Shown here: one piece after another, positions 1 to 41,900 of the stretch
Layout: every line of letters begins with the position of its first letter
Position numbering within the stretch: position 1 is the first letter of the stretch
Virus record (IMG/VR): IMGVR_UViG_3300028960_000080
Span: 1 to 41,900 of that record
From: a virus
Lineage: Duplodnaviria > Heunggongvirae > Uroviricota > Caudoviricetes
Reading direction: 5' to 3' (one strand)
Length of the DNA: 41,900 bases
Translations under genes and position numbers: made by a program
The notes under the pieces: generated by a model
Databases searched by the model: none
Told to the model about the DNA's origin: nothing
Seen by the model: only the letters and a program-made list of their open reading frames with translations

Positions 1-1284
1 TTACTTCTTCGCCTCTGCAACCACTTTGCTACCCACGCCGCGGTTATTGTATTCCCACATGCGGTTGTAGTTAGTGTCATTCAGATTGCGTTGTATTTCG
101 TCGTTATCATCAACGCTGCCGGTGTTACCCGCAAACGGACGATTAGAGATCACCGCATCAGCCCAGGGTTTGGCTGTGTTAAAACCTTCGTTGATGGCGC
201 TATCACGGATCACCACCTGACCGTTGGTATTGGCATCAACATCCAGCGAGCGACCCAGTTGCGCCACGCCATCACCGGAAGCATTGAAACGGCTGTTTAC
301 GGCGAGGAAACCGTAATAGATGTTAGACAGCGTAGCCGGTGCAAACACATACGCTTCTTGCTGAGTACGTGAGTTCACCACGCGGAATTCGGTGTTATCG
401 AACACCACTGCGCCGCGACCAGAAACGATATCCACATCCCCTTCAATGTAACTGTTGGTCACCAGAGTACGCGGCTGACGGTTGGTTTCCAGACGGTTTT
501 GCACACCACTGTTGGTGACAAAGAAGGTATTCTGACGACCGAGAATGTTGACGTTATTGATCTGCACTTTGTCACCATCAGTACGCAGTGCCACCGCCGG
601 ATGGTTACCCGCATCTACGCTATCGCCCAGCGTGTTTTCGATGGTCAGATTTTGCAGTTGCAGGCCATTGTTTTGTGACCAGAAGACCGCAGAGCAGAGA
701 ACACCGATACTGTCGCTGCGTTTGCTCTGGCAGCTATCGTACATATACCACGCTGGTTTACCTGGCATATATTTGCCGCGCGGGTTGACGTCGTGACGCC
801 AGTCGGCAGGGCTCATGCCCCCATCAAGGGAAAGCCCAATCTTCACATCAATCGGTTTTTCACCTGTACCGTACAGAGTAATTCCACCCGGAGCGGCAGG
901 GACATACACCGTTCCCTGATACTCACCAGGCATCACGGCAATATACTGGCGCTTGTTGGTGCGCTTGATAATTGCCGCATCTACCGCCGCCTGAATCGTG
1001 GTATGCGTTACACCTTGAGTACCCGCCGGGCCGACAACAAAGTCAGGTTGCGCAGGCAGGGTAATCGGGGAAGGATTCCACGCTGCCGCACCTGGTGTCA
1101 GGGATGCAAAATAGTGTTGAGCATCGAAATTCTGCGCTTCTTTTGCCGACAGAATCGGGCGAGAAGAGGTACCAGGCGCGGTTTGATCAGAAGGACGTTG
1201 ATCGGGCGGTGTTGAGCTACAGGCGGTCAGCGTCACGCCAAAAGCCAATGCCAGCGCCAGACGGGAAACTGAAAATGTGTTCAC
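1..1284 (-). CDS. ybhC: Host pectinesterase-family outer-membrane lipoprotein YbhC (complete, 427 aa)
   Basis: Full-length ORF with lipoprotein signal (LTACSS); recognised as the gene flanking attB-lambda in E. coli; stop codon at 1..3 on the minus strand. Confidence 0.85.
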   Translation of the reverse strand: MNTFSVSRLALALAFGVTLTACSSTPPDQRPSDQTAPGTSSRPILSAKEAQNFDAQHYFASLTPGAAAWNPSPITLPAQPDFVVGPAGTQGVTHTTIQAAVDAAIIKRTNKRQYIAVMPGEYQGTVYVPAAPGGITLYGTGEKPIDVKIGLSLDGGMSPADWRHDVNPRGKYMPGKPAWYMYDSCQSKRSDSIGVLCSAVFWSQNNGLQLQNLTIENTLGDSVDAGNHPAVALRTDGDKVQINNVNILGRQNTFFVTNSGVQNRLETNRQPRTLVTNSYIEGDVDIVSGRGAVVFDNTEFRVVNSRTQQEAYVFAPATLSNIYYGFLAVNSRFNASGDGVAQLGRSLDVDANTNGQVVIRDSAINEGFNTAKPWADAVISNRPFAGNTGSVDDNDEIQRNLNDTNYNRMWEYNNRGVGSKVVAEAKK

Positions 1285-7370: not shown

Positions 7371-7571
7371 ATGACAACTGACGATATCGAAAGCTACTTC
7401 GGCAGTATTGAGAAAGTTGCTGCTTTTTTCGGCATAACAACTGAAGCCGTTTATCAGTGGCGAAACCGTCCGGGCCAGTTAATTCCAAAAGGACGTGCAG
7501 CAGAAGCTGCATATAGAACTTGCGGACGGTTGCCATTTAAACCTGAGCTTTATGAAAAATCTAATGGATAA
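7371..7571 (+). CDS. cro: Cro-like HTH regulator (YdaS-like), 66 aa
   Basis: Small HTH protein (AAFFGITTEAVYQWRNR) divergently transcribed from cI. Confidence 0.75.
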   Translation: MTTDDIESYFGSIEKVAAFFGITTEAVYQWRNRPGQLIPKGRAAEAAYRTCGRLPFKPELYEKSNG

Positions 7572-8166
7572 ATCGATTAACAGAAACCACAGAACGATGA
7601 GGCTAACCGTGGGTAAGCATCACTGGAAAGTAGAAAAACAGCCTGAGTGGTACGTGAAAGCTGTCAGAAAAACTATCGCAAAGTTGCCGGGTGGTTACGC
7701 TGAAGCAGCTGACTGGCTGGATGTAACAGAGAACGCATTATTTAACCGCCTTCGTGCTGATGGCGATCAGATTTTCCCGCTGGGATGGGCAATGATTTTG
7801 CAACGTGCTGGTGGAACTCACTTCATTGCTGATGCTGTGGCGCAGTCTGCTAATGGCGTCTTTGTGTCTCTTCCTGACGTCGAGGATGTGGACAACGCCG
7901 ATATTAACCAGCGTCTGCTGGAAGTCATTGAACAGATCGGCAGTTATTCAAAACAGATTCGTTCAGCAATCGAAGACGGTGTAGTGGAACCGCATGAGAA
8001 GACAGCAATTAACGACGAGCTGTATCTCTCAATTTCGAAGCTGCAGGAGCATGCAGCACTTGTCTACAAAATTTTTTGCATTTCAGAAAGTAATGACGCC
8101 CGCGAGTGTGCAGCTCCGGGCGTCGTGGCGTCGATTGCTTCTGGTTGTGGAGAAACTAACGCATGA
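7495..8166 (+). CDS. YdaT-like protein occupying the cII position (start uncertain)
   Basis: ORF following cro; resembles the ydaS-ydaT pairing of Rac-like prophages; the track start is a GTG overlapping cro and alternative ATGs lack a clear ribosome-binding site. Confidence 0.55.
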
Positions 8167-8501
8167 ACAGTTTAACAACACACTACCGTCGCTCGCAACT
8201 GATTGCGCTTCCTGTACCGGGTGGAAAAGCGAAGGTGGAGTATTGCTATGCAGTAAATGTACCAGGTGACAGGGAAATTGTAACCCACAGCTTTGCAGAG
8301 TGGGCTGTGGGTGATTTCAACCGGCAGAAGGAGACAGTCCTTTGCGACAAGTTAACCGCTGGTTCAAAGATCACTACGGAGTGCCCGTCAGAGTCATTCG
8401 TTGGGAGCCGGAAACACAACGGGTTATCTACCTCCGCGAAGGCTATGAGCATGAGTGCTTCAGTCCGCTCGAACAGTTTCGTCGTAAATTCAGGGAAATA
8501 G
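8163..8501 (+). CDS. Hypothetical protein (112 aa), possibly frameshifted or partly spurious
   Basis: ATGA overlap with the upstream gene suggests coupling, but the C-terminal third is Ser-rich low complexity while an alternative frame encodes a protein-like sequence. Confidence 0.35.
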
Positions 8502-8521
8502 AGGTCGGTCATGAGCACTAA
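8342..8521 (+). CDS. Alternative-frame small ORF (59 aa, TTG start) not in the ORF track
   Basis: GAAGGAGA Shine-Dalgarno at 8327..8334, 7-nt spacer, TTG start; translation ...[42 protein letters not shown]; stop overlaps the start of the O-like gene. Confidence 0.35.
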
Positions 8522-9452
8522 ATTAACCGGCTATGTATGGGATGGTTGCGCAGCGTCAGGCATGAAATTATCCAGCGTGGCAATTATGGCCCGCCTGGCT
8601 GATTTCAGTAATGACGAAGGTGTGTGCTGGCCATCAATTGAAACCATTGCCCGCCAGATTGGCGCGGGGATGAGTACCGTCAGAACGGCTATCGCACGGC
8701 TGGAAGCAGAAGGCTGGTTAACGCGTAAGGCGCGTCGCCAGGGTAACCGCAATGCATCGAATGTTTATCAGCTTAACGTTGCGAAGCTTCAGGCAGCGGC
8801 ATTTTCTCAACTGTCAGATTCTGACACGTCAAAATCTGACGCATCAAAATCTGACCCGTCAAAATTTGATGCGTCGAAATCTGGCAAAAAAGCGGGTTTT
8901 CACCCGTCAGAATCTGGCGGGGATCCGTCAGTAAAATCAAAACATGATCCGTCAGATAAAAAAACTTCTCGTCCGGACGCTTCGCAACCGGACACGCAGA
9001 CGGATGAACAGGATTTTTTAACTCGCCATCCTGATGCGGTTGTATTCAGCCCTAAAAAGCGCCAGTGGGGGACGCAGGATGATTTGACCTGCGCACAGTG
9101 GCTCTGGAAAAAAATCATCGCCCTGTACGAGCAGGCCGCCGAATGTGACGGCGAGGTGGTTCGTCCTAAAGAACCGAACTGGACAGCCTGGGCAAACGAA
9201 ATTCGCCTGATGTGTGTGCAGGATGGTCGTACTCACAAACAAATCTGCGAGATGTACAGCCGCGTCAGCCGCGATCCGTTCTGGTGCCGTAACGTGCTCA
9301 GCCCGTCGAAGCTGCGGGAAAAATGGGATGAGCTTTCCCTGCGCTTATCGCCGTCCGTCAGCACGTACACCGAAAAACGCGAAGACCCGTACTTCAAAGC
9401 CAGTTACGACAACGTGGACTACAGCCAAATCCCGGCAGGATTCAGGGGGTGA
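8511..9452 (+). CDS. Replication initiator (lambda O-like: N-terminal winged-helix iteron binder, internal iteron-encoded linker)
   Basis: N-terminal HTH resembling phage replisome organisers; gene contains the iteron array as lambda O contains ori; sits at the O position after cro/cII-like genes. Confidence 0.75.
   Translation: MSTKLTGYVWDGCAASGMKLSSVAIMARLADFSNDEGVCWPSIETIARQIGAGMSTVRTAIARLEAEGWLTRKARRQGNRNASNVYQLNVAKLQAAAFSQLSDSDTSKSDASKSDPSKFDASKSGKKAGFHPSESGGDPSVKSKHDPSDKKTSRPDASQPDTQTDEQDFLTRHPDAVVFSPKKRQWGTQDDLTCAQWLWKKIIALYEQAAECDGEVVRPKEPNWTAWANEIRLMCVQDGRTHKQICEMYSRVSRDPFWCRNVLSPSKLREKWDELSLRLSPSVSTYTEKREDPYFKASYDNVDYSQIPAGFRG
8811..8918 (+). repeat. Origin iterons (about six ~15-bp repeats of consensus cGTCAAAATCTGAC) followed by an A-rich tract
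   Basis: Direct repeats read in sequence: CTGTCAGATTCTGAC, ACGTCAAAATCTGAC, GCATCAAAATCTGAC, CCGTCAAAATTTGAT, GCGTCGAAATCTGGC, CCGTCAGAATCTGGC. Confidence 0.7.
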
Positions 9453-9943
9453 GCATGAGTCTTTTGAATGACGTTCAGAAATTCATTGAAGCCCATCCGG
9501 GCTGTACTTCCGGAGACATTGCGGATGCTTTTGCAGGTTACTCACGGCAGCGCGTTCTGCAGTCAGCAAGCAAGTTACGTCAGAGTGGGCGTGTGGCTCA
9601 CCGTTGTGAAGGAGATACACACAGACATTTCCCGCGCCTGACTGAGAGAGCGCAGGATCCGGAACCACAACCAGTTCGTGAAACCAGACCTGTGCGCAAT
9701 TTCTATGTCGGCACTAACGACCCGCGGGTGATTTTGTGCCTGACCCGCCAGGCGGAAGAACTGGAGTCCAGGGGCTTATACCGTCGTGCTGCAACGGTGT
9801 GGATGGCGGCATTCCGTGAAAGCCACTCCCAGCCAGAACGAAACAATTTTCTGGCGCGTCGTGAACGGTGTTTACGGAAAAGCAGTAAGCGGGCTGCATC
9901 GGGTGAAGAGTGGTATCTGTCAGGGAATTACGTGGGGGCTTAA
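9449..9943 (+). CDS. PerC-family transcriptional regulator-like protein (164 aa)
   Basis: C-terminal GLYRRAATVWMAAF resembles the GLWRRAA..W motif of PerC/Pch regulators (from memory). Confidence 0.55.
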   Translation: MSMSLLNDVQKFIEAHPGCTSGDIADAFAGYSRQRVLQSASKLRQSGRVAHRCEGDTHRHFPRLTERAQDPEPQPVRETRPVRNFYVGTNDPRVILCLTRQAEELESRGLYRRAATVWMAAFRESHSQPERNNFLARRERCLRKSSKRAASGEEWYLSGNYVGA

Positions 9944-10596
9944 TGAGTAATAAATATTGCCAGGCGCTGGTGGAACTGCGGAACAAACCAGCCCATGAAC
10001 TGAAGGAAGTGGGCGATCAGTGGCGCACGCCGGACAACATTTTCTGGGGAATTAACACCCTGTTTGGCCCGTTTGTTCTGGATCTGTTCACTGATGGTGA
10101 TAACGCCAAATGTGCTGCGTATTACACGGCGGAAGACAACGCGCTGGCGCATGACTGGTCAGAACGTCTTGTGGAGCTTAAAGGTGCTGCCTTTGGTAAT
10201 CCCCCATACAGCCGCGCCAGTCAGCATGAGGGGCAATACATCACCGGCATGCGTTACATCATGAAACATGCCAGTGCCATGCGTGATAAGGGTGGGCGCT
10301 ATGTTTTCCTGATCAAAGCTGCCACCAGCGAAGTGTGGTGGCCGGAAGATGCGGACCATATTGCTTTTATTCGCGGGCGTATTGGTTTTGAACTGCCTGC
10401 CTGGTTTATCCCGAAAGATGAGAAGCAGGTGCCGACAGGCGCTTTCTTCGCTGGTGCTATTGCTGTTTTCGACAAGACCTGGAAGGGACCGGCAATCAGC
10501 TACATCGGGCGCGATGAACTTGAGGCATGTGGTGAGGCGTTTCTGGTGCAGGTTCGCCAGCAGGCGGAAAAACTGGTCAGGGAGATGGCGGCATGA
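9943..10596 (+). CDS. Phage N6-adenine DNA methyltransferase (Dam-like)
   Basis: NPPY catalytic motif (FGNPPYSR); start overlaps the upstream stop (TAATG); typical nin-region phage methylase. Confidence 0.88.
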   Translation: MSNKYCQALVELRNKPAHELKEVGDQWRTPDNIFWGINTLFGPFVLDLFTDGDNAKCAAYYTAEDNALAHDWSERLVELKGAAFGNPPYSRASQHEGQYITGMRYIMKHASAMRDKGGRYVFLIKAATSEVWWPEDADHIAFIRGRIGFELPAWFIPKDEKQVPTGAFFAGAIAVFDKTWKGPAISYIGRDELEACGEAFLVQVRQQAEKLVREMAA

Positions 10597-10919
10597 CGAC
10601 GTTAACTCAATGCCAGCAGCAGGTGCTGGATATGCTGATTTCTTACCAGCAAGAACGTGGCTTCCCGCCAACTAATCAGGAGGTGGCAACCATGCTGGGA
10701 TACCGTTCAGTGAATGCAGCGGTGGAGCATCTTCGCGCACTGGAGAAAAAAGGCGTCATCACGATAAAGCGTGGCGTGGCCCGGGGGATAACGCTTCATA
10801 CCGCGGTGAAGGACGACGACAGCGAGGCGGTCGGGATTATCCGCTCACTGCTTGCCGGTGAGGAAAACGCCAGGCAGCGTGCAGCCCACTGGTTACATGA
10901 GAGGGGCCTGAAAGTATGA
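10593..10919 (+). CDS. LexA N-terminal DNA-binding-domain-only protein (108 aa)
   Basis: Residues 1-70 align by eye with the LexA N-terminal winged helix (QQQVLDMLISYQQERGFPPTNQEVATMLGYRSVNAAVEHLRALEKKGVI); no S24 peptidase domain. Confidence 0.7.
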   Translation: MTTLTQCQQQVLDMLISYQQERGFPPTNQEVATMLGYRSVNAAVEHLRALEKKGVITIKRGVARGITLHTAVKDDDSEAVGIIRSLLAGEENARQRAAHWLHERGLKV

Positions 10920-11305
10920 AGCTGATCTTGCCTTTCCCGCCCAGCGTGAACACGTACTGGCGACACCCCAACAAAGGGGCGTTTGCAGGTAAGAGCCTGA
11001 TAAGCGCGGCGGGGCGCAAATTCCAGAGCGCGGCGTGCGCAGCAATAGTTGAGCAGTTACGTCGTCTGCCAAAACCAACGTCGGCACCTGCTTCAGTGGA
11101 GATCGTGTTGTTTCCTCCGGATAACCGGATCCGCGATCTGGACAACTATAACAAGGCGCTGTTTGACGCCCTGACCCACGCGGGTGTGTGGGAAGACGAC
11201 AGTCAGGTGAAAAGAATGCTGGTGGAGTGGGGACCGGTTATCCCGGAAGGGAAGGTCGAGATCACTATCAGTAAGTACGAGAAAACGGCGGGTGCAGCCG
11301 CCTGA
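10916..11305 (+). CDS. rusA: Holliday-junction resolvase RusA
   Basis: RusA-like motifs (PPSVNTYW, RDLDNYNKALFDALT) and size; nin-region position. Confidence 0.9.
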   Translation: MKLILPFPPSVNTYWRHPNKGAFAGKSLISAAGRKFQSAACAAIVEQLRRLPKPTSAPASVEIVLFPPDNRIRDLDNYNKALFDALTHAGVWEDDSQVKRMLVEWGPVIPEGKVEITISKYEKTAGAAA

Positions 11306-11324
11306 TTAAGAGGAGAAACGAAGT

Positions 11325-12167
11325 ATGAATAATCTGATGGTCATTGATGGTATTGAAGTTCGTCGTGATGCTTATGGACGTTATAGCCTGAACGATCTGC
11401 ATCGCGCAGCAGTAGCATCTGGTGCAAATGCCAGAACCAAGGAGCCGGGAAAGTTTCTTTCCAGCCAACAGATTACTGAGCTGGTTCAGGAATTGATCGA
11501 TACCCAAAATCTGGGTGTCGGTTCATTCAATGAAACTACCCAAAATTTGGGTAGTAAACCTGTCAGTAAAATAGAAGGGCGGAATGGCGGAACATATGTC
11601 TGTAAGGAACTGGTGTATGCCTATGCAATGTGGATCAGCCCGTCATTCCATCTGAAAGTGATCCGTACTTTCGATATGGTAACCAGCGCACCGGAAAAAT
11701 TATCCGGGCAGGCTGCTGACAAGATGCAGGCTGGAGTGATTCTGCTGGACTTTATGCGCAGGGAGTTAAACCTGTCTAACTCTTCAGTGCTTGGTGCCTG
11801 TCAGAAACTCCAGGAGGCTGTTGGCTTACCGAATCTGGCACCGCGCTATGCCATTGATGCTCCTGCTGACGCGCCTGATGGCTCAAGCCGCCCCACGCTG
11901 TCACTGAGTGCACTGCTGAAGCAGTATGGTATCCGCCTGACAGCTAATCAGGCATATCACCAGATGGTGAAGCTGGGGATCGTCGAGCAGCGCGAACGAT
12001 ACAGCCGTACCGCGATTAACAACATCAAAAAATTCTGGTCGCTAACGGCGAAAGGCTGCATGTTCGGCAAGAACATCACCAGTCCCGCAAATCCGCGCGA
12101 GACGCAGCCGCATTTCTTCGAATCCCGATTCCCTGAGCTGTTAAAGCTGCTCGATACCGTTCATTGA
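11325..12167 (+). CDS. KilA-N domain protein (antirepressor-like)
   Basis: N-terminal KilA-N-like region (GTYVCKELVYAYAMWISPSFHLKVIRTF); strong AGGAG Shine-Dalgarno. Confidence 0.7.
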   Translation: MNNLMVIDGIEVRRDAYGRYSLNDLHRAAVASGANARTKEPGKFLSSQQITELVQELIDTQNLGVGSFNETTQNLGSKPVSKIEGRNGGTYVCKELVYAYAMWISPSFHLKVIRTFDMVTSAPEKLSGQAADKMQAGVILLDFMRRELNLSNSSVLGACQKLQEAVGLPNLAPRYAIDAPADAPDGSSRPTLSLSALLKQYGIRLTANQAYHQMVKLGIVEQRERYSRTAINNIKKFWSLTAKGCMFGKNITSPANPRETQPHFFESRFPELLKLLDTVH

Positions 12168-12168
12168 G

Positions 12169-13164
12169 GTGACCGTGAGAGCACTACTGACCCCTGAAAT
12201 TGCCCCGCGTATGGGGATCGTATTGTTCAGACCAGGTTCAGAGCTGATGCCCCTGTTTATGCAGGGGCATGTCCTGCTGGAGCCTGAGCCGGAACGTTAT
12301 TCATCTTTCGCCAGTGGTGCCGTTCCGGCGGCATCACAACCGCTGGCGGATGATCCTGCCGTTCGGGCCGTGTTCCGCAATGAGGCAGTGATCCGTCGTG
12401 CTGGTGGCGTGGAATGTCTTGAAAGCTGGTTACTTCGTGAAAAAGGCTGCCAGTGGCCTCATTCCGACTGGCACAGCGAGAACATGACAACAATGCGACA
12501 CGCGCCGGGCGCAATCCGTCTGTGCTGGCACTGCGATAACCAGTTGCGCGATCAGTTCACGGAACGGCTGGAATCAATGGCAACGGATAACTGTGCCCGC
12601 TGGGTGTTGTCTGTTGTGCGTCTGGATCTCGGTTTTGATGACAGTCACGTTGTGACAATGCCGGAACTGTGCTGGTGGCTGATTCGTAATGATCTGGCGG
12701 ATGCCTTACCGGAAAGTGCAGCCCGTAAGGCACTGAGATTACCGAAGCCTGTTGTGCCGTCTGTCACCCGGGAAAGTGATCTTGTGCCTTCGGTTCCTGC
12801 CACCAGCATCATCCAGGATAAAGCGAAAAAGGTGCTGGCGCTGAAAGTGGATCCGGAGTCGCCGGAGTCTTTTATGTTACGCCCTAAACGTCGCCGCTGG
12901 GTTAACGAAAAGTACACGCGCTGGGTTAAGACGCAGCCGTGTGCATGTTGTGGAAAGCCTGCTGATGATCCCCACCACCTGATAGGTCACGGTCAGGGTG
13001 GAATGGGTACAAAAGCGCATGACCTCTTTGTGTTGCCTTTGTGCAGAAAGCATCACGACGAGCTGCATGCGGATACCGTGGCATTTGAAGAGAAGTATGG
13101 CTCCCAGCTGGAGCTGATATTTCGTTTTATCGACCGTGCGTTGGCAATTGGTGTGCTAGCCTGA
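12169..13164 (+). CDS. DUF968-like phage protein with C-terminal HNH/zinc-binding-like motif
   Basis: C-terminal CACCGKPADDPHHL...CRKHHDELH motif; lies between the KilA-N gene and Q; GTG start with adjacent GAGG. Confidence 0.55.
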   Translation: MTVRALLTPEIAPRMGIVLFRPGSELMPLFMQGHVLLEPEPERYSSFASGAVPAASQPLADDPAVRAVFRNEAVIRRAGGVECLESWLLREKGCQWPHSDWHSENMTTMRHAPGAIRLCWHCDNQLRDQFTERLESMATDNCARWVLSVVRLDLGFDDSHVVTMPELCWWLIRNDLADALPESAARKALRLPKPVVPSVTRESDLVPSVPATSIIQDKAKKVLALKVDPESPESFMLRPKRRRWVNEKYTRWVKTQPCACCGKPADDPHHLIGHGQGGMGTKAHDLFVLPLCRKHHDELHADTVAFEEKYGSQLELIFRFIDRALAIGVLA

Positions 13165-13545: not shown

Positions 13546-14586
13546 TTAAAGTGATGCGATGATAGCCCTTCCAAGAGCTTCAGCCATCTTGGGAGGGACT
13601 GCATTCCCTATCTGTTTGGCTTTCGAGACTAAAGAGCCTGTGAAGGAATAGTCTAATGGGAAAGTCTGTAATAACGCAGCCTCTCTAACAGAAATAGCCC
13701 TATCTTGCTCTGGATGTCCGAAACGTCCATTCGAATAGCTTATACATCTAGTTGTTAATCCACTTGCTGGTTTGTCCCAAGAAAGCCGTCCATAAACATC
13801 AGTATGCCCTTTATATTTTTTATGGCATTTTAGTATAAGTTCTTCAGGCCAAGATTCTCTACCTTTTCCCTCAGGAGTCGCTTTAATACGTTTAATATTT
13901 AGATCAGATAGTTTGGCTGCTGTATGATCCATAACATCTTTATGAGTTTCACCGGCAGCAATAGGAGGTAATCCGCCGATCCAGTCTCTGACAGTTGCAT
14001 ACGGAGTTTTTAACCCATCATGAGTTTGTGATGGAAGCTTAATATTCGTGTGTTTTGACGCCAGTAAAACAAAACGTTCACGTGTTTGAGGAACCCCGAA
14101 CCACAACGCAGGAATCACACCAAAATCAACGTTGTAGTGATGATGTGCTAAAACCTCAAGAAATTTCTGGAAATTTCCATTGTTAATATCGACATTTTGG
14201 ATTCCTGGTACATTCTCTACCAGTACAAAGTCTGGCGTATAATAAGAGACAAACCGTGCAAACTCAGTAAGCAGATCTTTTCTCGGATCATCCTCGTTCC
14301 GTATTTTATTTTGTTTCGAGAATGGTTGACATGGAGCACAACCACAAAATAGGGTTAGAGCTTTGCTTTGTGTTGACGCACAAACCAGATGCTTAATTTC
14401 CTCAACGTGTGTATCTTTGATATCACCATTGATAAAATGTGCAAATGGATTATTCATTTTAAAGGTGTTAGCGGAATCTAGATCAATATCTAAACCGAAA
14501 ATAATTTCCATTCCCACCGCTTTTAGGCCTACACTGGTTCCGCCGCAGCCGGAAAAGAAATCGTAAACGTGTATCTTTTTAGCCAT
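13546..14586 (-). CDS. DNA cytosine-C5 methyltransferase (Dcm-like)
   Basis: Canonical C5-MTase motifs in order: I (DFFSGCGG), IV (GCAPCQPFS, catalytic Cys), VI (LVENV), VIII (QTRERFVLL); AT-rich by eye. Confidence 0.92.
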   Translation of the reverse strand: MAKKIHVYDFFSGCGGTSVGLKAVGMEIIFGLDIDLDSANTFKMNNPFAHFINGDIKDTHVEEIKHLVCASTQSKALTLFCGCAPCQPFSKQNKIRNEDDPRKDLLTEFARFVSYYTPDFVLVENVPGIQNVDINNGNFQKFLEVLAHHHYNVDFGVIPALWFGVPQTRERFVLLASKHTNIKLPSQTHDGLKTPYATVRDWIGGLPPIAAGETHKDVMDHTAAKLSDLNIKRIKATPEGKGRESWPEELILKCHKKYKGHTDVYGRLSWDKPASGLTTRCISYSNGRFGHPEQDRAISVREAALLQTFPLDYSFTGSLVSKAKQIGNAVPPKMAEALGRAIIASL

Positions 14587-14589
14587 TAT

Positions 14590-16380
14590 CTACCTCACTC
14601 TTGGTCTGATAGTATCATTATCTAAAAAGATTTGCAGCAACTCTCGAGTTTTTGTTAACACTTCATGATTATTTGGTATTTTATTAAGAATTCTGATTTG
14701 TGTTTCAAAGATATCGTCACTGGTAACGTTCTCCAACCCTGTGTCTAACTTACAAAGTTCTTTGGTGATTTCTTTAGCATCTTGAATGTTTTTGGGGATT
14801 TGATCTTTATATTCTTTATAATCACCATGAACATTCTCAATAAGAAATGCTTCAGGAGTATAAACAGGAAGAAAAGCAATTTTATCGTGGATGAAATCGA
14901 TAAAATTTCTTTGCATTGTGTATTTTTGATTGTTATTTGATGAGCCATTAGAACCATCACAACTAAATTTTATATCCTGATTGGTTATTTCTTTTATGAT
15001 GTTTTGAAGGTTTGTGTTTTGATTTTCTGGTATGGAATCAGAAGTTGGATAATCATCAGTTCTCGATTGGTCACCATCTAATAAGAAAATAACGTTTTTA
15101 ACATTGGCAACACATAAAGGCACAGCCAAAGTTTGAAGAATACTTCCCGCTCCTCCAGGAACATGTTTTACTTCGAAGGAGTTTAATAATGCTTCACCAC
15201 CCGCTTTAAGCGCCTTTTCTACAAACCTCTTCGCTAACCGATCTTCTACAATAACGGTTCTTTTATCAATGCGTTCACCAAGAATAAAGAAAGATTCTTC
15301 TGGACTGACATTTTGAAGAACATCAACCTTTCCTATTTTATCATTCAGACAGAATAATTTTATGGCATTTTTAGGCAAGTCTTTTACTATTGTTGATGAA
15401 TGTGTGGATATGACAATTTGATGTTTCTTTTTAAGTGCTTGTTCTGATAAAAATTCCATCAATTGACATTGAGCAGAAGGGTGAAGTGATACTTCAGGTT
15501 CATCTAGCAGAATTAAAGATGCATCAGGGCTATCCATTAGTTTATGCACTAATATAGATACAGCAAATTCCCCACTGCCTGCGAAAGCTTCAGAATATTT
15601 TAAGTTTTCTGATTGAAGAATAATTGTGGGAGCTTTGTCATTAGTGAATAAGCTATGTTCAATAAGGCGGATGCTTGTGTATTTGCGACCTAAAATCTTG
15701 CTGATTGCCTCTACCTTACTTTTTTCTAATAAAGTGTTAACAAATAGCTTGTCTTTTTTTCCTTTATGAGGTTGATATTTTTTAAGATCGTTATCTATAA
15801 TGTCTTTTAGCATCTGACTGCGTTTTCTAAGATAATCTTTCTTAGGGTATGTATGAAAATCAGAGTGATAAAAGAACTTATCAAATGCACTGATAGTTGC
15901 TCTGAAATCTAAATATATTACATTTTTGTCAATAGCTTTCCACCTGGTCCTTAGTTGATTGGTTGAGATTTTTGTACTAGGCATTGGAGCCATGTTGTCG
16001 GATTTTAATGGTCTGGATGGTTCCCAGTAATCAGGATCATTTTCTTTAGAGATTCGAGTTTTAATTACTTCAACAATTGAATCAGTAGCTTTGTCATAAT
16101 ATCCATAAATAAATCTAGAACGACCACCATCTTTAATCTCATCTACATCTGTAGAAAACCATAAGCTACCCAGAGAATAGTTGTTTGGAGAACCGAATAG
16201 GGCTCTTAAAACAGAACTTTTATTGGTTCCGTTTTGACCAACTAATGCTGTAATTGGATACTCAAAATCAATCTTGCTACCCTCTGCAAGGTTTTTAAAA
16301 AAAGGAAAACGAATATGTCTAATAAATGGCTCAATTTTAGACGATGCCATAATTTTCTTTAGTTTTAATTCTGTGCTCAT
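14590..16380 (-). CDS. ABC-type ATPase fused to a TOPRIM-like nuclease domain (OLD-family-like / fused PARIS-like), 596 aa
   Basis: Walker A (GQNGTNKSS), Walker B (LILLDEPEVSLHP), H-loop (ISTHS) in the N-terminal half; C-terminal TVIVED and FLLDGDQ fit the TOPRIM Glu and DxD motifs; 3-nt gap to the methyltransferase gene; start could instead be the ATG at 16350. Confidence 0.8.
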   Translation of the reverse strand: MSTELKLKKIMASSKIEPFIRHIRFPFFKNLAEGSKIDFEYPITALVGQNGTNKSSVLRALFGSPNNYSLGSLWFSTDVDEIKDGGRSRFIYGYYDKATDSIVEVIKTRISKENDPDYWEPSRPLKSDNMAPMPSTKISTNQLRTRWKAIDKNVIYLDFRATISAFDKFFYHSDFHTYPKKDYLRKRSQMLKDIIDNDLKKYQPHKGKKDKLFVNTLLEKSKVEAISKILGRKYTSIRLIEHSLFTNDKAPTIILQSENLKYSEAFAGSGEFAVSILVHKLMDSPDASLILLDEPEVSLHPSAQCQLMEFLSEQALKKKHQIVISTHSSTIVKDLPKNAIKLFCLNDKIGKVDVLQNVSPEESFFILGERIDKRTVIVEDRLAKRFVEKALKAGGEALLNSFEVKHVPGGAGSILQTLAVPLCVANVKNVIFLLDGDQSRTDDYPTSDSIPENQNTNLQNIIKEITNQDIKFSCDGSNGSSNNNQKYTMQRNFIDFIHDKIAFLPVYTPEAFLIENVHGDYKEYKDQIPKNIQDAKEITKELCKLDTGLENVTSDDIFETQIRILNKIPNNHEVLTKTRELLQIFLDNDTIRPRVR

Positions 16381-38226: not shown

Positions 38227-39702
38227 CTAAAGTGAATCTATTCCATTTTTCCAAATAAGAACTTTTTTGTCTTGTATTTTATGAGTGCTATCAGGCTGCC
38301 CAAACTGTTTTATGGCCTTTTCCTCTTGCTCTACATCATCAGCAATTAAAAAATTAGCTCCTTTTTGGTACCATTCTTTTTTTGATAACCAATTATATGG
38401 TGTGAATCTATCACCATACGACTCAAATGGAGCTACGTTGATATCACTAAATCCAGCAACAGATGATGCAAACCAAAATGATGCATAACCTCTTTGTAGT
38501 TTATTTTTTATTAAGAAATCTCTTAATTCTATTGTAATATCATTTTTATTAACAATGTTTTTTGTTGTTGCCATCGTTGGCAACGATAACGCAATAACGA
38601 TTAATGATATTAGTAAATTTGTCTTCACTGGTAAGGAGAAAGAATTTCTAGCAATCACAATTGACATGAAAATAAACGTTGGGACTATGTATCTAATTGA
38701 GAAAAGATTTGTTGGCCTGTCACTTGAAATATAGGCAATCAACATGACTAATGATGATACAATAAGAACCTGGTCAATAAAATCAATTTCTTTAAATTTA
38801 AGAATATTTTTATAAGATAAAAATAAGAATACGAAAATGAAAAACACCTTTATCATGGTGAATAATGAGTTAAAGCTACCTATCTCCATTCCAAACGCGT
38901 ACCCACCAAAAAATTTGAATACGCCCATGATAACAAGAGATATGTTGCTTGTTATTTGTTGAAACTCTACTATGTGAGGTTTGGTTATGCCTGGCAGGTT
39001 AAATCCACCAAGCTTAATGAATATAAATGATATGAGCTCAGCAATAAATATAGATGATATAGTGAAAACCAACAATAACAAATCATTAGTATTCAACGAA
39101 TCTCTTTTCATTAGAGAAGCATACATTCTATATATGCAAACAAAAACTATAGGTATTATAAAGGCATATTTAGATATATCATCACTAAAAACAAGCAACG
39201 ATAACATAAATACATATGGAAAAAGTAATTTTAAATCATTTTTCTTTCTGTATCTATCTATTATTAGTATGATCGCCAGCATGTAAATGTACGCACCAAT
39301 ATGTATACATGCTATAAGCATTATACTTGATGAGAAAACCGTTGGAATTCCAAATACAGAAAGAACAGGCCATAACGATGCCCTACTTTTAGTATGAGAG
39401 ATATATAGCGATAGTGTTACTAATATAGACATGAAAACTCCAGGCACAATATAGTACAGATTTTCATTAAATCCTATTATTTTTATCGCTATAGCATATG
39501 GTATTATTTCTGTGAAATAGAATGATACAGTTGATAAATCCCACCCACTGAGAAAAATATTTCCTTCAGTAATATCCCTTGCCTCTCTGAATGAAGACAT
39601 GACATCTGAGTTTGGAATTATGTTTTTAGCAATCATTGAGTAAATTATTGATAATACAATAAATGTTGCCAGCCAATATAAAAGCTCAAGCTTCTTGCTC
39701 AT
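38227..39702 (-). CDS. Serotype-specific O-antigen glucosyltransferase (GtrC-type polytopic membrane protein)
   Basis: 491-aa multi-pass membrane protein immediately downstream of gtrB; very AT-rich. Confidence 0.8.
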
Positions 39703-40616
39703 TTTTTACCCTTAAGTACATACTTTGGACGCTGCTTAACTTCAATGTAAATTCTACCAATATACTCACCGAGCACTCCAATCCCAATTAACTGGATGCC
39801 GCCAAGAAATAATATTGATACAAGAATTGAAGGGTATCCAGGTACATTATTACCAAAAATTAATTTATCAATTATCATCCATGAACCGTATGTAAATGAT
39901 ATACATGCAATAAATAACCCAATATAGGTCCACATGCGAAGCGGGAATGTTGAGAAGCTAGTGATCCCTTCCAGCGCCAAGTTCCATAGCTTCCATCCAT
40001 TGAACTTTGTGCTTCCTGCAACGCGTTCTGCTCGCGCATATTCTACGACATCGGTTCGACCACCAACCCAGCTCAGCACACCCTTCATAAACAGGTTTCG
40101 TTCTGGCATGAGCTTAATGTTTTCTACTACTTCGCGAGACATGAGCCGGAAGTCGCCAACATTCTCTTCTATCTGAGGGTTGCTGATTTTGTTATGAAGT
40201 TTATAGAACCACTCAGCAGATTTACGCTTCAGCCTGCTGTCAGTGGAGCGGTCAGAGCGTTTAGCCAGAACCATATCTGCACCGGCCTGCCATTTCTCTA
40301 TCAAGTGAGGAATAACTTCGATAGGGTCTTGCAGATCAACGTCAATCGGGATAATTGCCTCCCCGGTAGCATGGTCCAGACCTGCGAACAGGGCGGGTTC
40401 TTTGCCGAAGTTACGTGTGAACGACAGCGAAACCACAAGCGGGTCGGCAACAGCAAGCTCGTTGATAATTGATTCTGTAGCGTCTTTGCTGCCATCGTTT
40501 ATGAAGACTATCTCGACTTCATGCTGCTGAAGCCCTTCAAATTCGCGCACGGTTTTATAAAAAATAGGTATCGTGGCCTCTTCGTTAAAGACCGGAACGA
40601 CTAAAGAAATTTTCAT
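39699..40616 (-). CDS. gtrB: Bactoprenol glucosyltransferase GtrB
   Basis: GT2-family glycosyltransferase signatures ([22 protein letters not shown]) and two C-terminal transmembrane helices. Confidence 0.92.
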
Positions 40617-40975
40617 TTCGCATCCCTAAAGACAATGTATTTTGAATAAATGAACCCGCATATCAGGCTGATGGCGGAGAAGGTGACAAGAGTTATCATC
40701 GGGGGAAGTGCGCATCTATCAGCAGCCCATCCAACAGTAGCACTGAGTGTTCCCATGAACCCGACATATAACATGTAGCGCATCGTTGTAGTTGATGATT
40801 TGAATGTGAATTTTGCATTCGCGAAGAAGCTAAAACTCACAGCCACAACGAAACCTGCGAAGTTTGCCAGAGCCTGATTGGTATGCGCGGCATAGATACA
40901 TACACTAAAAACCACCCAGTGTATAAGTGTGTTCAGCACACCAATCGAGGTGTACCTTGCAAATATATTTAACAT
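40613..40975 (-). CDS. gtrA: GtrA flippase-like small membrane protein
   Basis: 120-aa four-helix membrane protein upstream of gtrB; the three genes overlap by 4 nt each. Confidence 0.85.
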
Positions 40976-41423: not shown

Positions 41424-41900
41424 TTAACTAAACATCGCAGTAATCGAGGCGCTTGCCAGAGAATGGAAATGGACGTTAAACCCGACCATCGCGCCGCTGG
41501 CACCTTCATCGACATCAATACGTTCTACATCCAGCGCGTGAACGGTAAAAATGTAGCGATGGGTTTCGCCTTTCGGCGGCGCTGCACCATCGTACCCGGT
41601 TTTACCAAAGTCGGTACGCGTCTGCAAAACGCCGTCTGGCATTGCTACCAGACCAGAGCCAAACCCTTGCGGTAATACGCGGGTATCAGCGGGTAAATTA
41701 ACAACTACCCAGTGCCACCAGCCGGAGCCGGTTGGCGCATCCGGGTCGTAGCAGGTGACAACAAAACTTTTCGTTCCCGCAGGAACATCATCCCACGCCA
41801 GATGCGGTGAAACATTATCGCCATCGTAACCCATGCCGTTAAAGACATGACGATGTGGCAACTTATCGCCATCGCGCAGATCATTACTGATGAGTTTCAT
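41424..41900 (-). CDS. ybhB: Host PEBP-family protein YbhB (complete, 158 aa)
   Basis: Full ORF; recognised as the gene flanking attB-lambda on the bio side; start codon at the window edge. Confidence 0.85.
   Translation of the reverse strand: MKLISNDLRDGDKLPHRHVFNGMGYDGDNVSPHLAWDDVPAGTKSFVVTCYDPDAPTGSGWWHWVVVNLPADTRVLPQGFGSGLVAMPDGVLQTRTDFGKTGYDGAAPPKGETHRYIFTVHALDVERIDVDEGASGAMVGFNVHFHSLASASITAMFS

What the first reader, a model, noticed from the sequence alone, without database searches (positions are those of the whole stretch)
9449..9943. PerC-family regulator-like gene in the replication region
The C-terminal half carries a GLYRRAATVWMAAF motif resembling PerC/Pch-type activators, prophage-encoded homologues of which regulate host virulence loci in pathogenic E. 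coli. Where a helicase loader (P or DnaC-like) would be expected after the initiator, this phage has this regulator instead, so it may act on phage or host transcription.
Basis: partly seen in the sequence, partly recalled or inferred. Interest (0 to 1): 0.35.

Follow-up and report, generated by a model that had tools for sequence, protein, structure and literature searches.

The report
Prophage gene yfdN, PerC-family regulator
The gene is real and is the already-annotated prophage gene yfdN, a small two-domain protein (a DNA-binding winged helix plus the core of the PerC/Pch virulence-regulator fold) that always sits directly after the phage replication initiator; it is not a helicase loader and its function has never been tested.

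Summary
The ORF at 9449/9455-9943 (+) exists and carries GLYRRAATVWMAAF. It passes Pfam PerC (36.1 bits against a cut-off of 22.6) and is 40% identical over 45 residues to a group-1 Pch-like protein. It is 99.6% identical to E. coli K-12 yfdN, which RefSeq already names "PerC family transcriptional regulator". The gene occurs in 2674 of 5426 complete E. coli genomes and in SfII/SfV/ST64B/mEp460/Stx2 phages.

- Only the first half of the PerC model is present, and residues 3-60 form a confidently predicted winged helix.
- In 226 of 230 loci, a YfdN-like gene directly follows an initiator ending in IPxGFRG.
- Initiators with that tail are instead followed by a DnaC-like AAA+ loader in 20 of 108 cases, or directly by Dam in 8 of 108. 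The Dam cases include the environmental isolates Eeyore and LLS.

So the "loader slot" remark is correct as a statement of position. YfdN itself has no loader features and can be dispensed with. The window encodes no loader, so the phage presumably uses host DnaB-DnaC.

The most likely role is an early, initiator-coupled DNA-binding regulator of the PerC (anti-H-NS) type. This role is untested.

The parts
9455..9943 (+). yfdN-type CDS (162 aa from ATG 9455; the alternative GTG 9449 gives 164 aa as annotated in K-12); stop TAA 9941-9943 overlaps the ATG of the Dam gene (TAATG)
   Evidence: 99.6% nt identity to K-12 yfdN; PHROG 1324 'transcriptional activator' at 2.9e-78 over the full length
9461..9634 (+). 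N-terminal winged-helix domain (residues 3-60: three helices plus a beta-hairpin wing)
   Evidence: AF2 model pLDDT 94-98; Foldseek hits to ArsR/MarR/BlaI/DsrD-type wHTH with TM (target-normalised) 0.5-0.8 and rmsd 1.6-2.5 A over about 60 residues; profile hit to BlaI at E 1.8e-4; PHROG 1687 MarR-like at 5.8e-5
9635..9721 (+). Poorly conserved linker of variable length (residues 61-89)
   Evidence: pLDDT 57-59; gapped and variable in alignment A1
9722..9883 (+). PerC-core domain: three helices (residues 90-106, 109-122, 126-143) containing GLYRRAATVWMAAF (nt 9773-9814)
   Evidence: Pfam PF06069 residues 98-149 = model positions 5-56 of 90, 36.1 bits; pLDDT 96-98; invariant L103, R111, A112 in 32 homologues; 40% identity to a Pch-like protein
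9884..9940 (+). C-terminal tail with the family-conserved motif W-Y-L-S-G-N-Y-V-G (consensus [LM]-[ASP]-G-x-[YF]-x-G); absent from PchABC-type proteins
   Evidence: Alignment A1 (G157 near-invariant); low pLDDT of 54-73; Pch-like sequence for comparison
9444..9449 (+). Shine-Dalgarno AGGGGG for yfdN, lying inside the last codons of the initiator gene; the initiator stop TGA is at 9450-9452. This arrangement indicates translational coupling.
   Evidence: the gap from initiator stop to YfdN start is -4 or +2 nt in 221 of 226 loci
8511..9452 (+). Replication initiator (O-like, 313 aa): N-terminal HTH_36 wHTH, iteron-coding linker, and a lambda-O-type C-domain
   Evidence: BLASTP against lambda O at 6e-26 over the C-terminal half
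9378..9449 (+). Conserved C-terminal tail of the initiator, REDPYFKASYDNVDYSQIPAGFRG. The core IPxGFRG is found on initiators with at least 6 N-terminal and 3 C-domain types.
8799..8921 (+). Iteron-like 15-nt direct repeats (TCAAAATCTGACNCG, 5-6 copies) inside the initiator gene; probable origin
   Evidence: analogous to the ori-lambda iterons annotated inside lambda O
9943..10596 (+). Phage N6-adenine methyltransferase (Dam), the next gene in the operon
   Evidence: Pfam PF05869 at 9.8e-46; TIGR01712 at 255 bits

Best explanation
The feature is the lambdoid-prophage gene yfdN. It is a delayed-early gene of the rightward (pR) operon, translationally coupled to the replication initiator gene in front of it. 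It encodes a 162-aa protein with two folded modules. The first is an N-terminal winged helix of the ArsR/MarR/BlaI type, the likely DNA-targeting module. The second is a three-helix C-terminal module that is the conserved core of the PerC/Pch family. A flexible linker joins them, and a conserved C-terminal peptide follows.

The most likely mechanism, by inference from the family, is as follows. After induction it is made together with the initiator. It binds DNA through the winged helix and modulates transcription through the PerC core. For Pch, that core acts by displacing or remodelling H-NS silencing complexes.

It is not a helicase loader. The phage encodes none, and its O-like initiator presumably recruits the host DnaB-DnaC complex.

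Shown here: gene identity, domain architecture, family membership of the core, operon position, and strict synteny with the initiator. Inferred: DNA binding, anti-silencing activity and targets.
For: - Identity and annotation: 99.6% identical to K-12 yfdN, annotated 'PerC family transcriptional regulator', and found in 2674 of 5426 E. coli genomes. It is also present in SfII, SfV, SfIV, ST64B, mEp460 and Stx2a/2c phages.
- PerC core: above the Pfam gathering score and 40% identical to a Pch-like protein over the motif helices. Distant two-domain relatives also pass PF06069.
- Winged helix: predicted with high confidence, with only regulator-type structural neighbours.
- Conservation: the two-domain family holds together down to 25% identity across Escherichia, Salmonella, Citrobacter, Cronobacter, Atlantibacter and Franconibacter.
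- Operon position: no promoter-like or terminator-like site separates it from the initiator, and the genes overlap or abut.
- Pch mechanism: H-NS anti-silencing, PMC4764244.
- Not a loader: no AAA+, lambda P or DnaB signal. The plaque-isolated phages Eeyore and LLS carry the same initiator family with neither a YfdN-like nor a loader gene.
- Transcript data: yfdN rises together with neighbouring prophage genes under stress in CFT073, PMC5320621.
Against: - No experiment has tested YfdN. PMC5931665 only deleted it as a precaution.
- YfdN lacks the C-terminal half of the PerC model (positions 57-90), so the activity of PerC/Pch may not transfer.
- The divergent family members PchD and PchE do not behave like PchABC.
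- No candidate operator (inverted repeat) was found nearby.
- A YfdN-like gene follows an initiator in 226 of 230 loci across 16 sequence clusters. That adjacency is stricter than expected for a free-standing regulator and hints at a link to replication.
- A winged helix can also be a protein-binding module.
Confidence: 0.55

Rival explanations
1. YfdN-like proteins are accessory factors of the replication initiator. Possible roles include modulating origin firing, relieving H-NS or nucleoid occlusion at the AT-rich iteron origin, or bridging the initiator to host replication proteins. On this reading they are not general transcription regulators.
For: In 226 of 230 loci covering 16 YfdN clusters (at 60% identity), the gene lies directly (-4 or +2 nt) after an initiator ending in IPxGFRG. 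The initiators themselves are mosaic, with at least 6 N-terminal and 3 C-domain types. The mosaic junction in Stx2c, SfV and ST64B phages lies inside the 3' end of the initiator gene, so the tail and yfdN travel together. YfdN-like and DnaC-like genes are essentially mutually exclusive across 350 loci. The same initiator type (HTH_36 plus lambda-O C-domain) is followed by YfdN in the window and by a DnaC-like gene in L252. The YfdN C-terminal peptide (LSGNYVG) loosely resembles the initiator tail (IPAGFRG).
Against: The IPxGFRG tail is not specific to YfdN. It also occurs on initiators followed by DnaC-like genes (20 of 108), directly by Dam (8 of 108) or by other genes. Near-identical YfdN proteins pair with initiators of different DNA-binding domains, so there is no co-variation with origin specificity. 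Phages Eeyore and LLS lack the gene. Natural yfdN deletions also exist downstream of a window-type initiator (L299, L306, L321). In DnaC-type phages the gene after the loader carries YfdN-like winged helices, which suggests that slot is simply 'first gene after the replication genes'.
Confidence: 0.2
2. YfdN is a non-canonical helicase loader that replaces lambda P or DnaC.
For: Position only. It occupies the slot held by a DnaC-like AAA+ gene in related phages, and no DnaC-like gene was found in the window.
Against: There is no Walker or AAA+ domain, no similarity to lambda P, and no loader-like fold in PDB or BFVD. Its folded parts are a wHTH and a PerC helical core. Related viable phages have neither YfdN nor a loader, so the initiator family works with host functions.
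Confidence: 0.03
3. YfdN is a host-virulence or lifestyle regulator of the Pch type. On this reading it is a lysogenic-conversion function acting on host loci such as LEE, curli or flagella.
For: It belongs to the PerC family. PchABC activate ler, PchE represses csgD and activates flagella, and all are prophage-encoded. ASKA overexpression of yfdN gave a glycogen phenotype.
Against: The gene sits inside the repressed early lytic operon rather than in a moron position. It is widespread in LEE-negative K-12, commensal E. coli, Shigella and Salmonella phages. It lacks the C-terminal half of PerC/Pch, and the divergent PchD and PchE give little or no ler activation.
Confidence: 0.07

Closest known systems
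E. coli K-12 YfdN (b2357, CPS-53/KpLE1 cryptic prophage) and its phage orthologues (SfV orf40, SfII 'PerC transcriptional activator family protein', ST64B Sb43, mEp460 gp44)
   Same: Same gene: 99.6% nucleotide identity to K-12 yfdN; 94-100% protein identity of the C-terminal 85 aa to the E. coli and Shigella phage copies and 75% to ST64B Sb43. The position between the initiator and Dam is also the same.
   Different: In K-12 both neighbours (yfdO, yfdM) are truncated pseudogenes. Here the whole replication module is intact.
PerC (EPEC EAF plasmid) and PchA/B/C (EHEC prophages), Pfam PF06069
   Same: Shares the helix-turn-helix hairpin with ...LE.KGLYRRAA..W... followed by the R..CL helix. It scores above the Pfam gathering cut-off and is 40% identical over 45 aa. 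Both are prophage or mobile-element encoded.
   Different: PerC/Pch are single-domain proteins of about 90-104 aa that match the whole model (136 bits, positions 1-89). YfdN matches only positions 5-56, adds an N-terminal winged helix and a different conserved C-terminal peptide, and sits in the replication module. Activation of ler and H-NS anti-silencing are shown for Pch and untested for YfdN.
PchD / PchE (groups 2 and 3 of the EHEC PerC homologues)
   Same: Divergent PerC-family members whose function is not LEE activation.
   Different: Their sequences were not retrieved here, so the relationship to YfdN was not tested.
ANR family (AraC negative regulators such as Aar; NCBIfam NF033650)
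   Same: Weak match of the same helices: 23.5 bits, residues 96-142. One single-domain relative found here is annotated ANR by NCBI yet scores 72 bits on Pfam PerC, so the two families overlap.
   Different: The match is below the NCBIfam cut-off of 32, and ANR proteins are single-domain proteins of about 60-80 aa.
Phage helicase loaders: lambda P and DnaC/IstB-like AAA+ loaders
   Same: Same genomic slot, directly after the initiator. Related phages with the same initiator tail carry an IstB_IS21/DnaA-type AAA+ gene there.
   Different: There is no sequence or fold similarity.

Membership tests
PerC family (Pfam PF06069) | Sequence scores above the curated gathering threshold of the family model | tested here: met
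   36.1 bits against a cut-off of 22.6, E 7.9e-9. Distant two-domain relatives score 28-34 bits, also above the cut-off.
PerC family (Pfam PF06069) | Conserved core motif LE.KGLYRRAA..W and the following R..C(L/I) helix | tested here: met
   Residues 103-140. L103, R111 and A112 are invariant, and A100, A113, R136 and C139 are at least 90% conserved in 32 homologues. The region aligns to Pch-like residues 6-50 at 40% identity.
PerC family (Pfam PF06069) | Full-length, single-domain architecture of about 90-104 aa covering the whole model | tested here: not met
   Only model positions 5-56 of 90 are matched, whereas the Pch-like control matches 1-89. YfdN has an added N-terminal wHTH and a distinct tail.
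PerC family (Pfam PF06069) | Activates LEE1/ler by relieving H-NS silencing | not testable with these tools
   Shown for Pch (PMC4764244; PMC5931665). No experiment on YfdN was found in 16 papers that mention it.
Winged-helix (ArsR/MarR/BlaI-like) DNA-binding domain | Three-helix bundle plus a beta-hairpin wing | tested here: met
   AF2 gives H3-13, H19-25, H31-44, E47-52 and E55-60 with pLDDT 94-98. Foldseek target-normalised TM is up to 0.8 at rmsd 1.6 A.
Winged-helix (ArsR/MarR/BlaI-like) DNA-binding domain | Significant sequence match to a curated wHTH family | tested here: inconclusive
   Pfam finds nothing for the window protein. Sub-threshold or weak hits are PHROG 1687 at 5.8e-5, BlaI by PDB profile at 1.8e-4, and HTH_24/MarR_2 below cut-off in relatives.
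ANR family (NCBIfam NF033650) | Score above the NCBIfam cut-off | tested here: not met
   23.5 bits against a cut-off of 32.
DnaC/IstB-type AAA+ helicase loader | AAA+ ATPase domain (PF01695/PF00308) with Walker motifs | tested here: not met
   No hit in Pfam, PHROGs or NCBIfam. The positive control from related phages scores 68 bits on IstB_IS21. phmmer with that loader finds nothing in the six-frame window.
Lambda P-type helicase loader | Sequence similarity to lambda P | tested here: not met
   BLASTP against lambda P gives a best E of 0.2 over 8 residues. No Phage_lambda_P hit was found.

The most novel reading that the evidence does not exclude
YfdN-like proteins are a dedicated, initiator-coupled replication module component of lambdoid and SfV-like phages. 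On this reading a wHTH plus PerC-core protein works with IPxGFRG-tailed initiators, for example by clearing H-NS from the origin or by docking on the same host partner as the initiator tail. It would be the functional alternative to carrying a DnaC-like loader. The virulence regulators PerC/Pch would then be exapted, truncated descendants of a phage replication accessory protein.
Probability: 0.12. Interest if true: 0.6.

Novelty: already known. Interest (0 to 1): 0.22.

Why it matters
As found, this is an ordinary gene that public databases already annotate correctly, so the annotation itself adds little. Its value lies in context. yfdN is present in about half of complete E. coli genomes, and it stays intact in K-12 while both neighbours have decayed, yet nobody has tested what it does.

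The comparative pattern recorded here gives a concrete, cheap set of experiments. The pattern has two parts: a strict position after initiators that share a conserved IPxGFRG C-terminal peptide, and a slot that is alternatively filled by a DnaC-like loader or left empty. The experiments could show how loader-less lambdoid phages recruit the host helicase, and whether the PerC/Pch virulence regulators derive from a phage early-operon protein.

Tried and rejected
- The search for homologous proteins with the C-terminal 85 aa returned only close relatives and did not reach PerC/Pch. A Pch-like control was obtained instead by tblastn on plasmids.
Three sub-alignments were used instead.
- Porter et al. 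2005 (PMC543544), which classifies the PerC homologues, is not held.
- Fold searches (PDB, BFVD) and a PDB sequence-profile search gave only generic winged helices and no solved PerC/ANR structure.
- The hypothesis 'the initiator tail is a YfdN docking peptide' was weakened by the reverse search. The tail also occurs with DnaC-like, Dam or other downstream genes.
- Single-linkage clustering of the upstream initiators chained mosaic proteins into one cluster. It was replaced by separate N-terminal and C-domain clustering.
- No inverted repeat was found near the gene, and promoter-like sites were at chance level (5 found against 5.3 expected). No operator could therefore be proposed.
- PADLOC gave no defence-system hit for YfdN.
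- Natural fusion proteins in the database (P0001 and others) were inspected as possible stand-ins for a tail-YfdN complex prediction. They are frameshift artefacts that destroy the GFRG tail. No multimer prediction was possible.
Full report
OBSERVATION.
The ORF is real. It runs on the + strand from GTG 9449 or ATG 9455 to TAA 9941-9943, giving 164 or 162 aa. The quoted motif GLYRRAATVWMAAF is residues 107-120 of the 162-aa form. The start is more probably ATG 9455. Every homologue begins MSL..., and the AGGGGG Shine-Dalgarno at 9444-9449 lies 5 nt upstream of that ATG. The initiator's stop (TGA 9450-9452) and the Dam start (TAATG at 9941-9945) abut or overlap the gene, so it is embedded in a tightly packed operon.

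FORMAL FAMILY TESTS.
- Pfam PF06069 (PerC) matches residues 98-149 at 36.1 bits against a gathering score of 22.6, E 7.9e-9. The match covers only model positions 5-56 of 90.
- PHROG 1324 ('transcriptional activator') matches the full length at 2.9e-78. The N-terminal half alone belongs to a PHROG of unknown function and weakly resembles a MarR-type PHROG.
- NCBIfam ANR_neg_reg matches the same helices below its cut-off, 23.5 against 32.
- A 104-aa, 315-bp PerC-family gene on an O55:H7 plasmid next to an NleG effector served as a genuine Pch-type control, since 315 bp is the size given for group-1 pch genes in PMC5931665. It matches the whole Pfam model at 136 bits. It aligns to YfdN residues 99-143 at 40% identity, E 5e-8.
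- The PerC resemblance is therefore statistically real but partial.

IDENTITY.
The DNA is 99.6% identical to yfdN of the E. coli K-12 CPS-53 (KpLE1) cryptic prophage, which RefSeq annotates as 'PerC family transcriptional regulator'. Matches occur in 2674 of 5426 complete E. coli genomes. The same gene is present in phages SfII (annotated 'PerC transcriptional activator family protein'), SfV (orf40), SfIV, ST64B (sb43), mEp460, Ayreon and several Stx2a/Stx2c phages.

PMC5931665 calls yfdN 'the K12 unique PerC homologue' and deleted it from a ler::lacZ reporter strain as a precaution. No paper among the 16 that mention the gene tests its function. The other mentions are incidental. ASKA overexpression gave a glycogen phenotype, the transcript rises with neighbouring prophage genes under nitric-oxide stress in CFT073, and an interactome preprint places it in a 'negative regulation of transcription' sub-network.

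ANATOMY.
An exhaustive HMMER search of 1.84 billion representatives found 99 relatives. About 35 of them are full-length two-domain proteins of 138-165 aa, down to 25% identity. NCBI names these proteins PerC family in Citrobacter, Atlantibacter, Cronobacter, Franconibacter, Kluyvera, Salmonella and Escherichia.

Alignment A1 of 32 sequences shows:
- a conserved N-terminus (MSL..V..FI..NPG.T..EIA);
- a variable linker;
- the PerC core, with L103, R111 and A112 invariant and A100, A113, R136 and C139 at least 90% conserved;
- a conserved C-terminal peptide ([LM]-[ASP]-G-x-[YF]-x-G, here LSGNYVG) that Pch-type proteins lack.

AlphaFold2 on this alignment gave a mean pLDDT of 86. It predicts:
- a winged helix at residues 3-60 (pLDDT 94-98);
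- a disordered linker at residues 61-89;
- three helices at 90-143 (pLDDT 96-98);
- a low-confidence tail.

Foldseek against PDB and BFVD, and a PDB sequence-profile search, find only ArsR/MarR/BlaI/DsrD-type winged helices for the N-domain. They find nothing for the PerC core, and no AAA+, lambda P or other loader fold.

CONTEXT IN THE WINDOW.
The window is a prophage lying between ybhC (Pectinesterase family, 1-1284) and a ybhB-like PEBP gene (41424-41900). From my own knowledge this is the att-lambda site; that was not checked here.

The gene order is: int, xis, YfdR-like nucleotidase, DUF2303/YfdQ (left operon); an S24 cI repressor; a P22-type Cro; a CII/YmfL-like gene; a small ORF; the O-like initiator (8511-9452); YfdN; Dam; a LexA DNA-binding-domain-only protein; RusA; a KilA-N protein; DUF968/HNH; and Q.

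The initiator has an HTH_36 N-domain and 15-nt iteron-like repeats inside its own gene at 8799-8921. Its C-domain is homologous to the C-terminal half of lambda O, the half that contacts P in lambda (my own knowledge), at 6e-26. Yet no P-, DnaC- or DnaB-like gene turned up. The ORFs scanned against family libraries (early operons, 7495-13164 and 13546-16380) gave no such hit, and a six-frame search of the whole window with a DnaC-like query was negative. The late-region ORFs were not scanned against family libraries. No promoter-like or + strand terminator-like site separates the initiator from yfdN.

COMPARATIVE GENOMICS, FORWARD DIRECTION.
I collected 230 loci carrying a YfdN-like gene. They came from IMG/VR scans with three sub-alignments plus phage records, and fall into 16 clusters at 60% identity.
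- In 226 of the 230 loci, the gene immediately upstream ends in ...IPxGFRG or a close variant.
- The gap between its stop and the YfdN start is -4 or +2 nt in 221 of those 226.
- The upstream proteins are mosaic initiators. At least 6 N-terminal DNA-binding types combine with 3 C-domain types: Phg_2220_C (PF09524), the lambda-O C-domain, and an SfV-type domain. All share the same tail.
- In Stx2c, SfV and ST64B phages the initiator body differs from the window's, but the last 24 residues and yfdN are shared. The mosaic junction therefore lies inside the 3' end of the initiator gene.
- The tail is conserved at the protein level through codon changes, for example AGG GGG against AGA GGA in F1055.

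COMPARATIVE GENOMICS, REVERSE DIRECTION.
I scanned IMG/VR for DNA encoding IPxGFRG followed by TGA. The downstream gene in these 108 loci was classified as follows:
- 70 are followed by a YfdN-like gene;
- 20 by a 250-aa IstB_IS21/DnaA-type AAA+ protein, that is a DnaC-like loader;
- 8 directly by Dam;
- 10 by something else.

The window's own initiator type (HTH_36 plus lambda-O C-domain) occurs with a DnaC-like gene in L252. Across 350 loci, YfdN-like and DnaC-like genes co-occur only twice. In both cases the 'YfdN' hit is a weak (23-25 bits) winged-helix-only match, and it lies in the 256-aa gene just after the loader.

Phages Eeyore (river water) and LLS (lake water, host K-12) carry an initiator 99-100% identical to the 'Dam-direct' type. 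Their order is cI, cro, cII-like, small ORF, initiator, Dam, with neither YfdN nor a loader.

WHAT THIS MEANS.
The slot after IPxGFRG-tailed initiators is filled by a YfdN-like gene, by a DnaC-like loader, or by nothing. Four points argue against YfdN being the loader's functional substitute.
1. It has no loader features.
2. The tail is not specific to YfdN, so it more probably contacts something common to all these phages. A host replication protein is my guess, and it is untested.
3. Environmental phage isolates replicate with the same initiator family and neither gene. One caveat is that the K-12 host of LLS itself carries an intact yfdN.
4. DnaC-type phages carry a YfdN-like winged-helix gene after the loader, which makes the loader look like an optional inserted cassette.

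Near-identical YfdN proteins also pair with initiators that have different DNA-binding domains, so YfdN does not co-vary with origin specificity. Against this, the adjacency to the initiator is invariant across deep divergence. That is more than expected for an independent regulator, and it keeps a replication-linked role alive at about 0.2.

MECHANISM PROPOSED.
YfdN is made from the pR operon together with the initiator. It binds DNA through the winged helix, and through the PerC core it modulates transcription. For Pch, the core acts by reducing H-NS binding and remodelling the silencing complex at LEE1 (PMC4764244).

What is shown here is the architecture, the family membership of the core, the operon position and the synteny. 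DNA binding, H-NS antagonism and the targets are inferred. The phage presumably uses host DnaB-DnaC, recruited by the O-like initiator; this too is an inference.

COMPARISON AND NOVELTY.
The gene is a member of the PerC family by the curated threshold, but it is a variant architecture (wHTH plus PerC core plus tail) and not a PchABC-type protein. It is not an ANR-family member by the curated cut-off, and it is not a helicase loader.

The gene and its annotation are already public, so the finding itself is 'already known'. I did not find two things described in the searchable literature. One is the IPxGFRG initiator tail. The other is the three-state slot after such initiators. They are recorded as side observations.

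Noticed in passing
window 9378-9449 (and L001-L005, L007-L350): Replication initiators with at least 6 different N-terminal DNA-binding domains and 3 unrelated C-domains (Phg_2220_C, lambda-O C-domain, SfV type) all end in a conserved peptide ...(D/Q)x(S/T)xIPxGFRG-COOH. The peptide is conserved at the protein level through codon changes. It occurs whether the next gene is YfdN-like, DnaC-like or Dam. Its binding partner is unknown.
   Followed up: partly
window 8511-9452: The O-like initiator has a C-domain homologous to the lambda O C-terminal half (E 6e-26), which in lambda binds P. Yet no P-like or DnaC-like gene was found in the window.
   Followed up: partly
window 8799-8921: Five to six 15-nt direct repeats (TCAAAATCTGACNCG) lie inside the initiator gene and encode its SKSD-rich linker. 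They are probably origin iterons, as in ori-lambda.
   Followed up: no
window 9884-9940: The conserved C-terminal peptide of YfdN-like proteins ([LM]-[AS]-G-x-[YF]-x-G, here LSGNYVG) loosely resembles the initiator tail (IPAGFRG). This could be mimicry of the same docking site, or it could be coincidence.
   Followed up: no
L248 898 onward, L332 3181 onward, and the 256-aa ORF 773-1543 nt downstream of the initiator stop in L252 (minus strand): In phages with a DnaC-like loader after the initiator, the next gene encodes a protein of about 256 aa. It has two copies of a winged helix resembling the YfdN N-domain (14-19 bits per domain) and no PerC part.
   Followed up: partly
window 10593-10919: A 108-aa protein consists of the LexA DNA-binding domain only (PF01726, 69 bits) and lacks the S24 autocleavage domain. 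It could be a non-cleavable LexA-box binder encoded in the early operon.
   Followed up: no
window 13546-16380 (- strand): A two-gene cassette lies between Q and the lysis genes, the position where Stx phages carry stx. It comprises a C-5 cytosine DNA methyltransferase (PF00145, 201 bits) and a 596-aa AAA_15/AAA_21 ATPase. The ATPase's best PADLOC hits are HEC-04 (124 bits) and ATPase-Toprim I-B, which are OLD/Gabija-like. This is a candidate defence or RM-like cassette.
   Followed up: partly
window 1-1284, 38227-40975, 41424-41900: The prophage is flanked by ybhC-like (Pectinesterase) and ybhB-like (PEBP) host genes, which I take to be the att-lambda region. At its right end it carries a gtrA / gtrB / 491-aa cassette of the O-antigen glucosylation, serotype-conversion kind. 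The 491-aa protein has no Pfam hit.
   Followed up: partly
L353 (E. coli K-12 MG1655 1409789-1411253): In K-12 the initiator (yfdO) and Dam (yfdM) genes flanking yfdN are truncated pseudogenes, while yfdN itself is intact.
   Followed up: no
L299, L306, L321: These IMG/VR contigs carry a window-type initiator followed after 50-95 nt by Dam. They look like natural deletions of yfdN. Whether these elements are viable phages is unknown.
   Followed up: no
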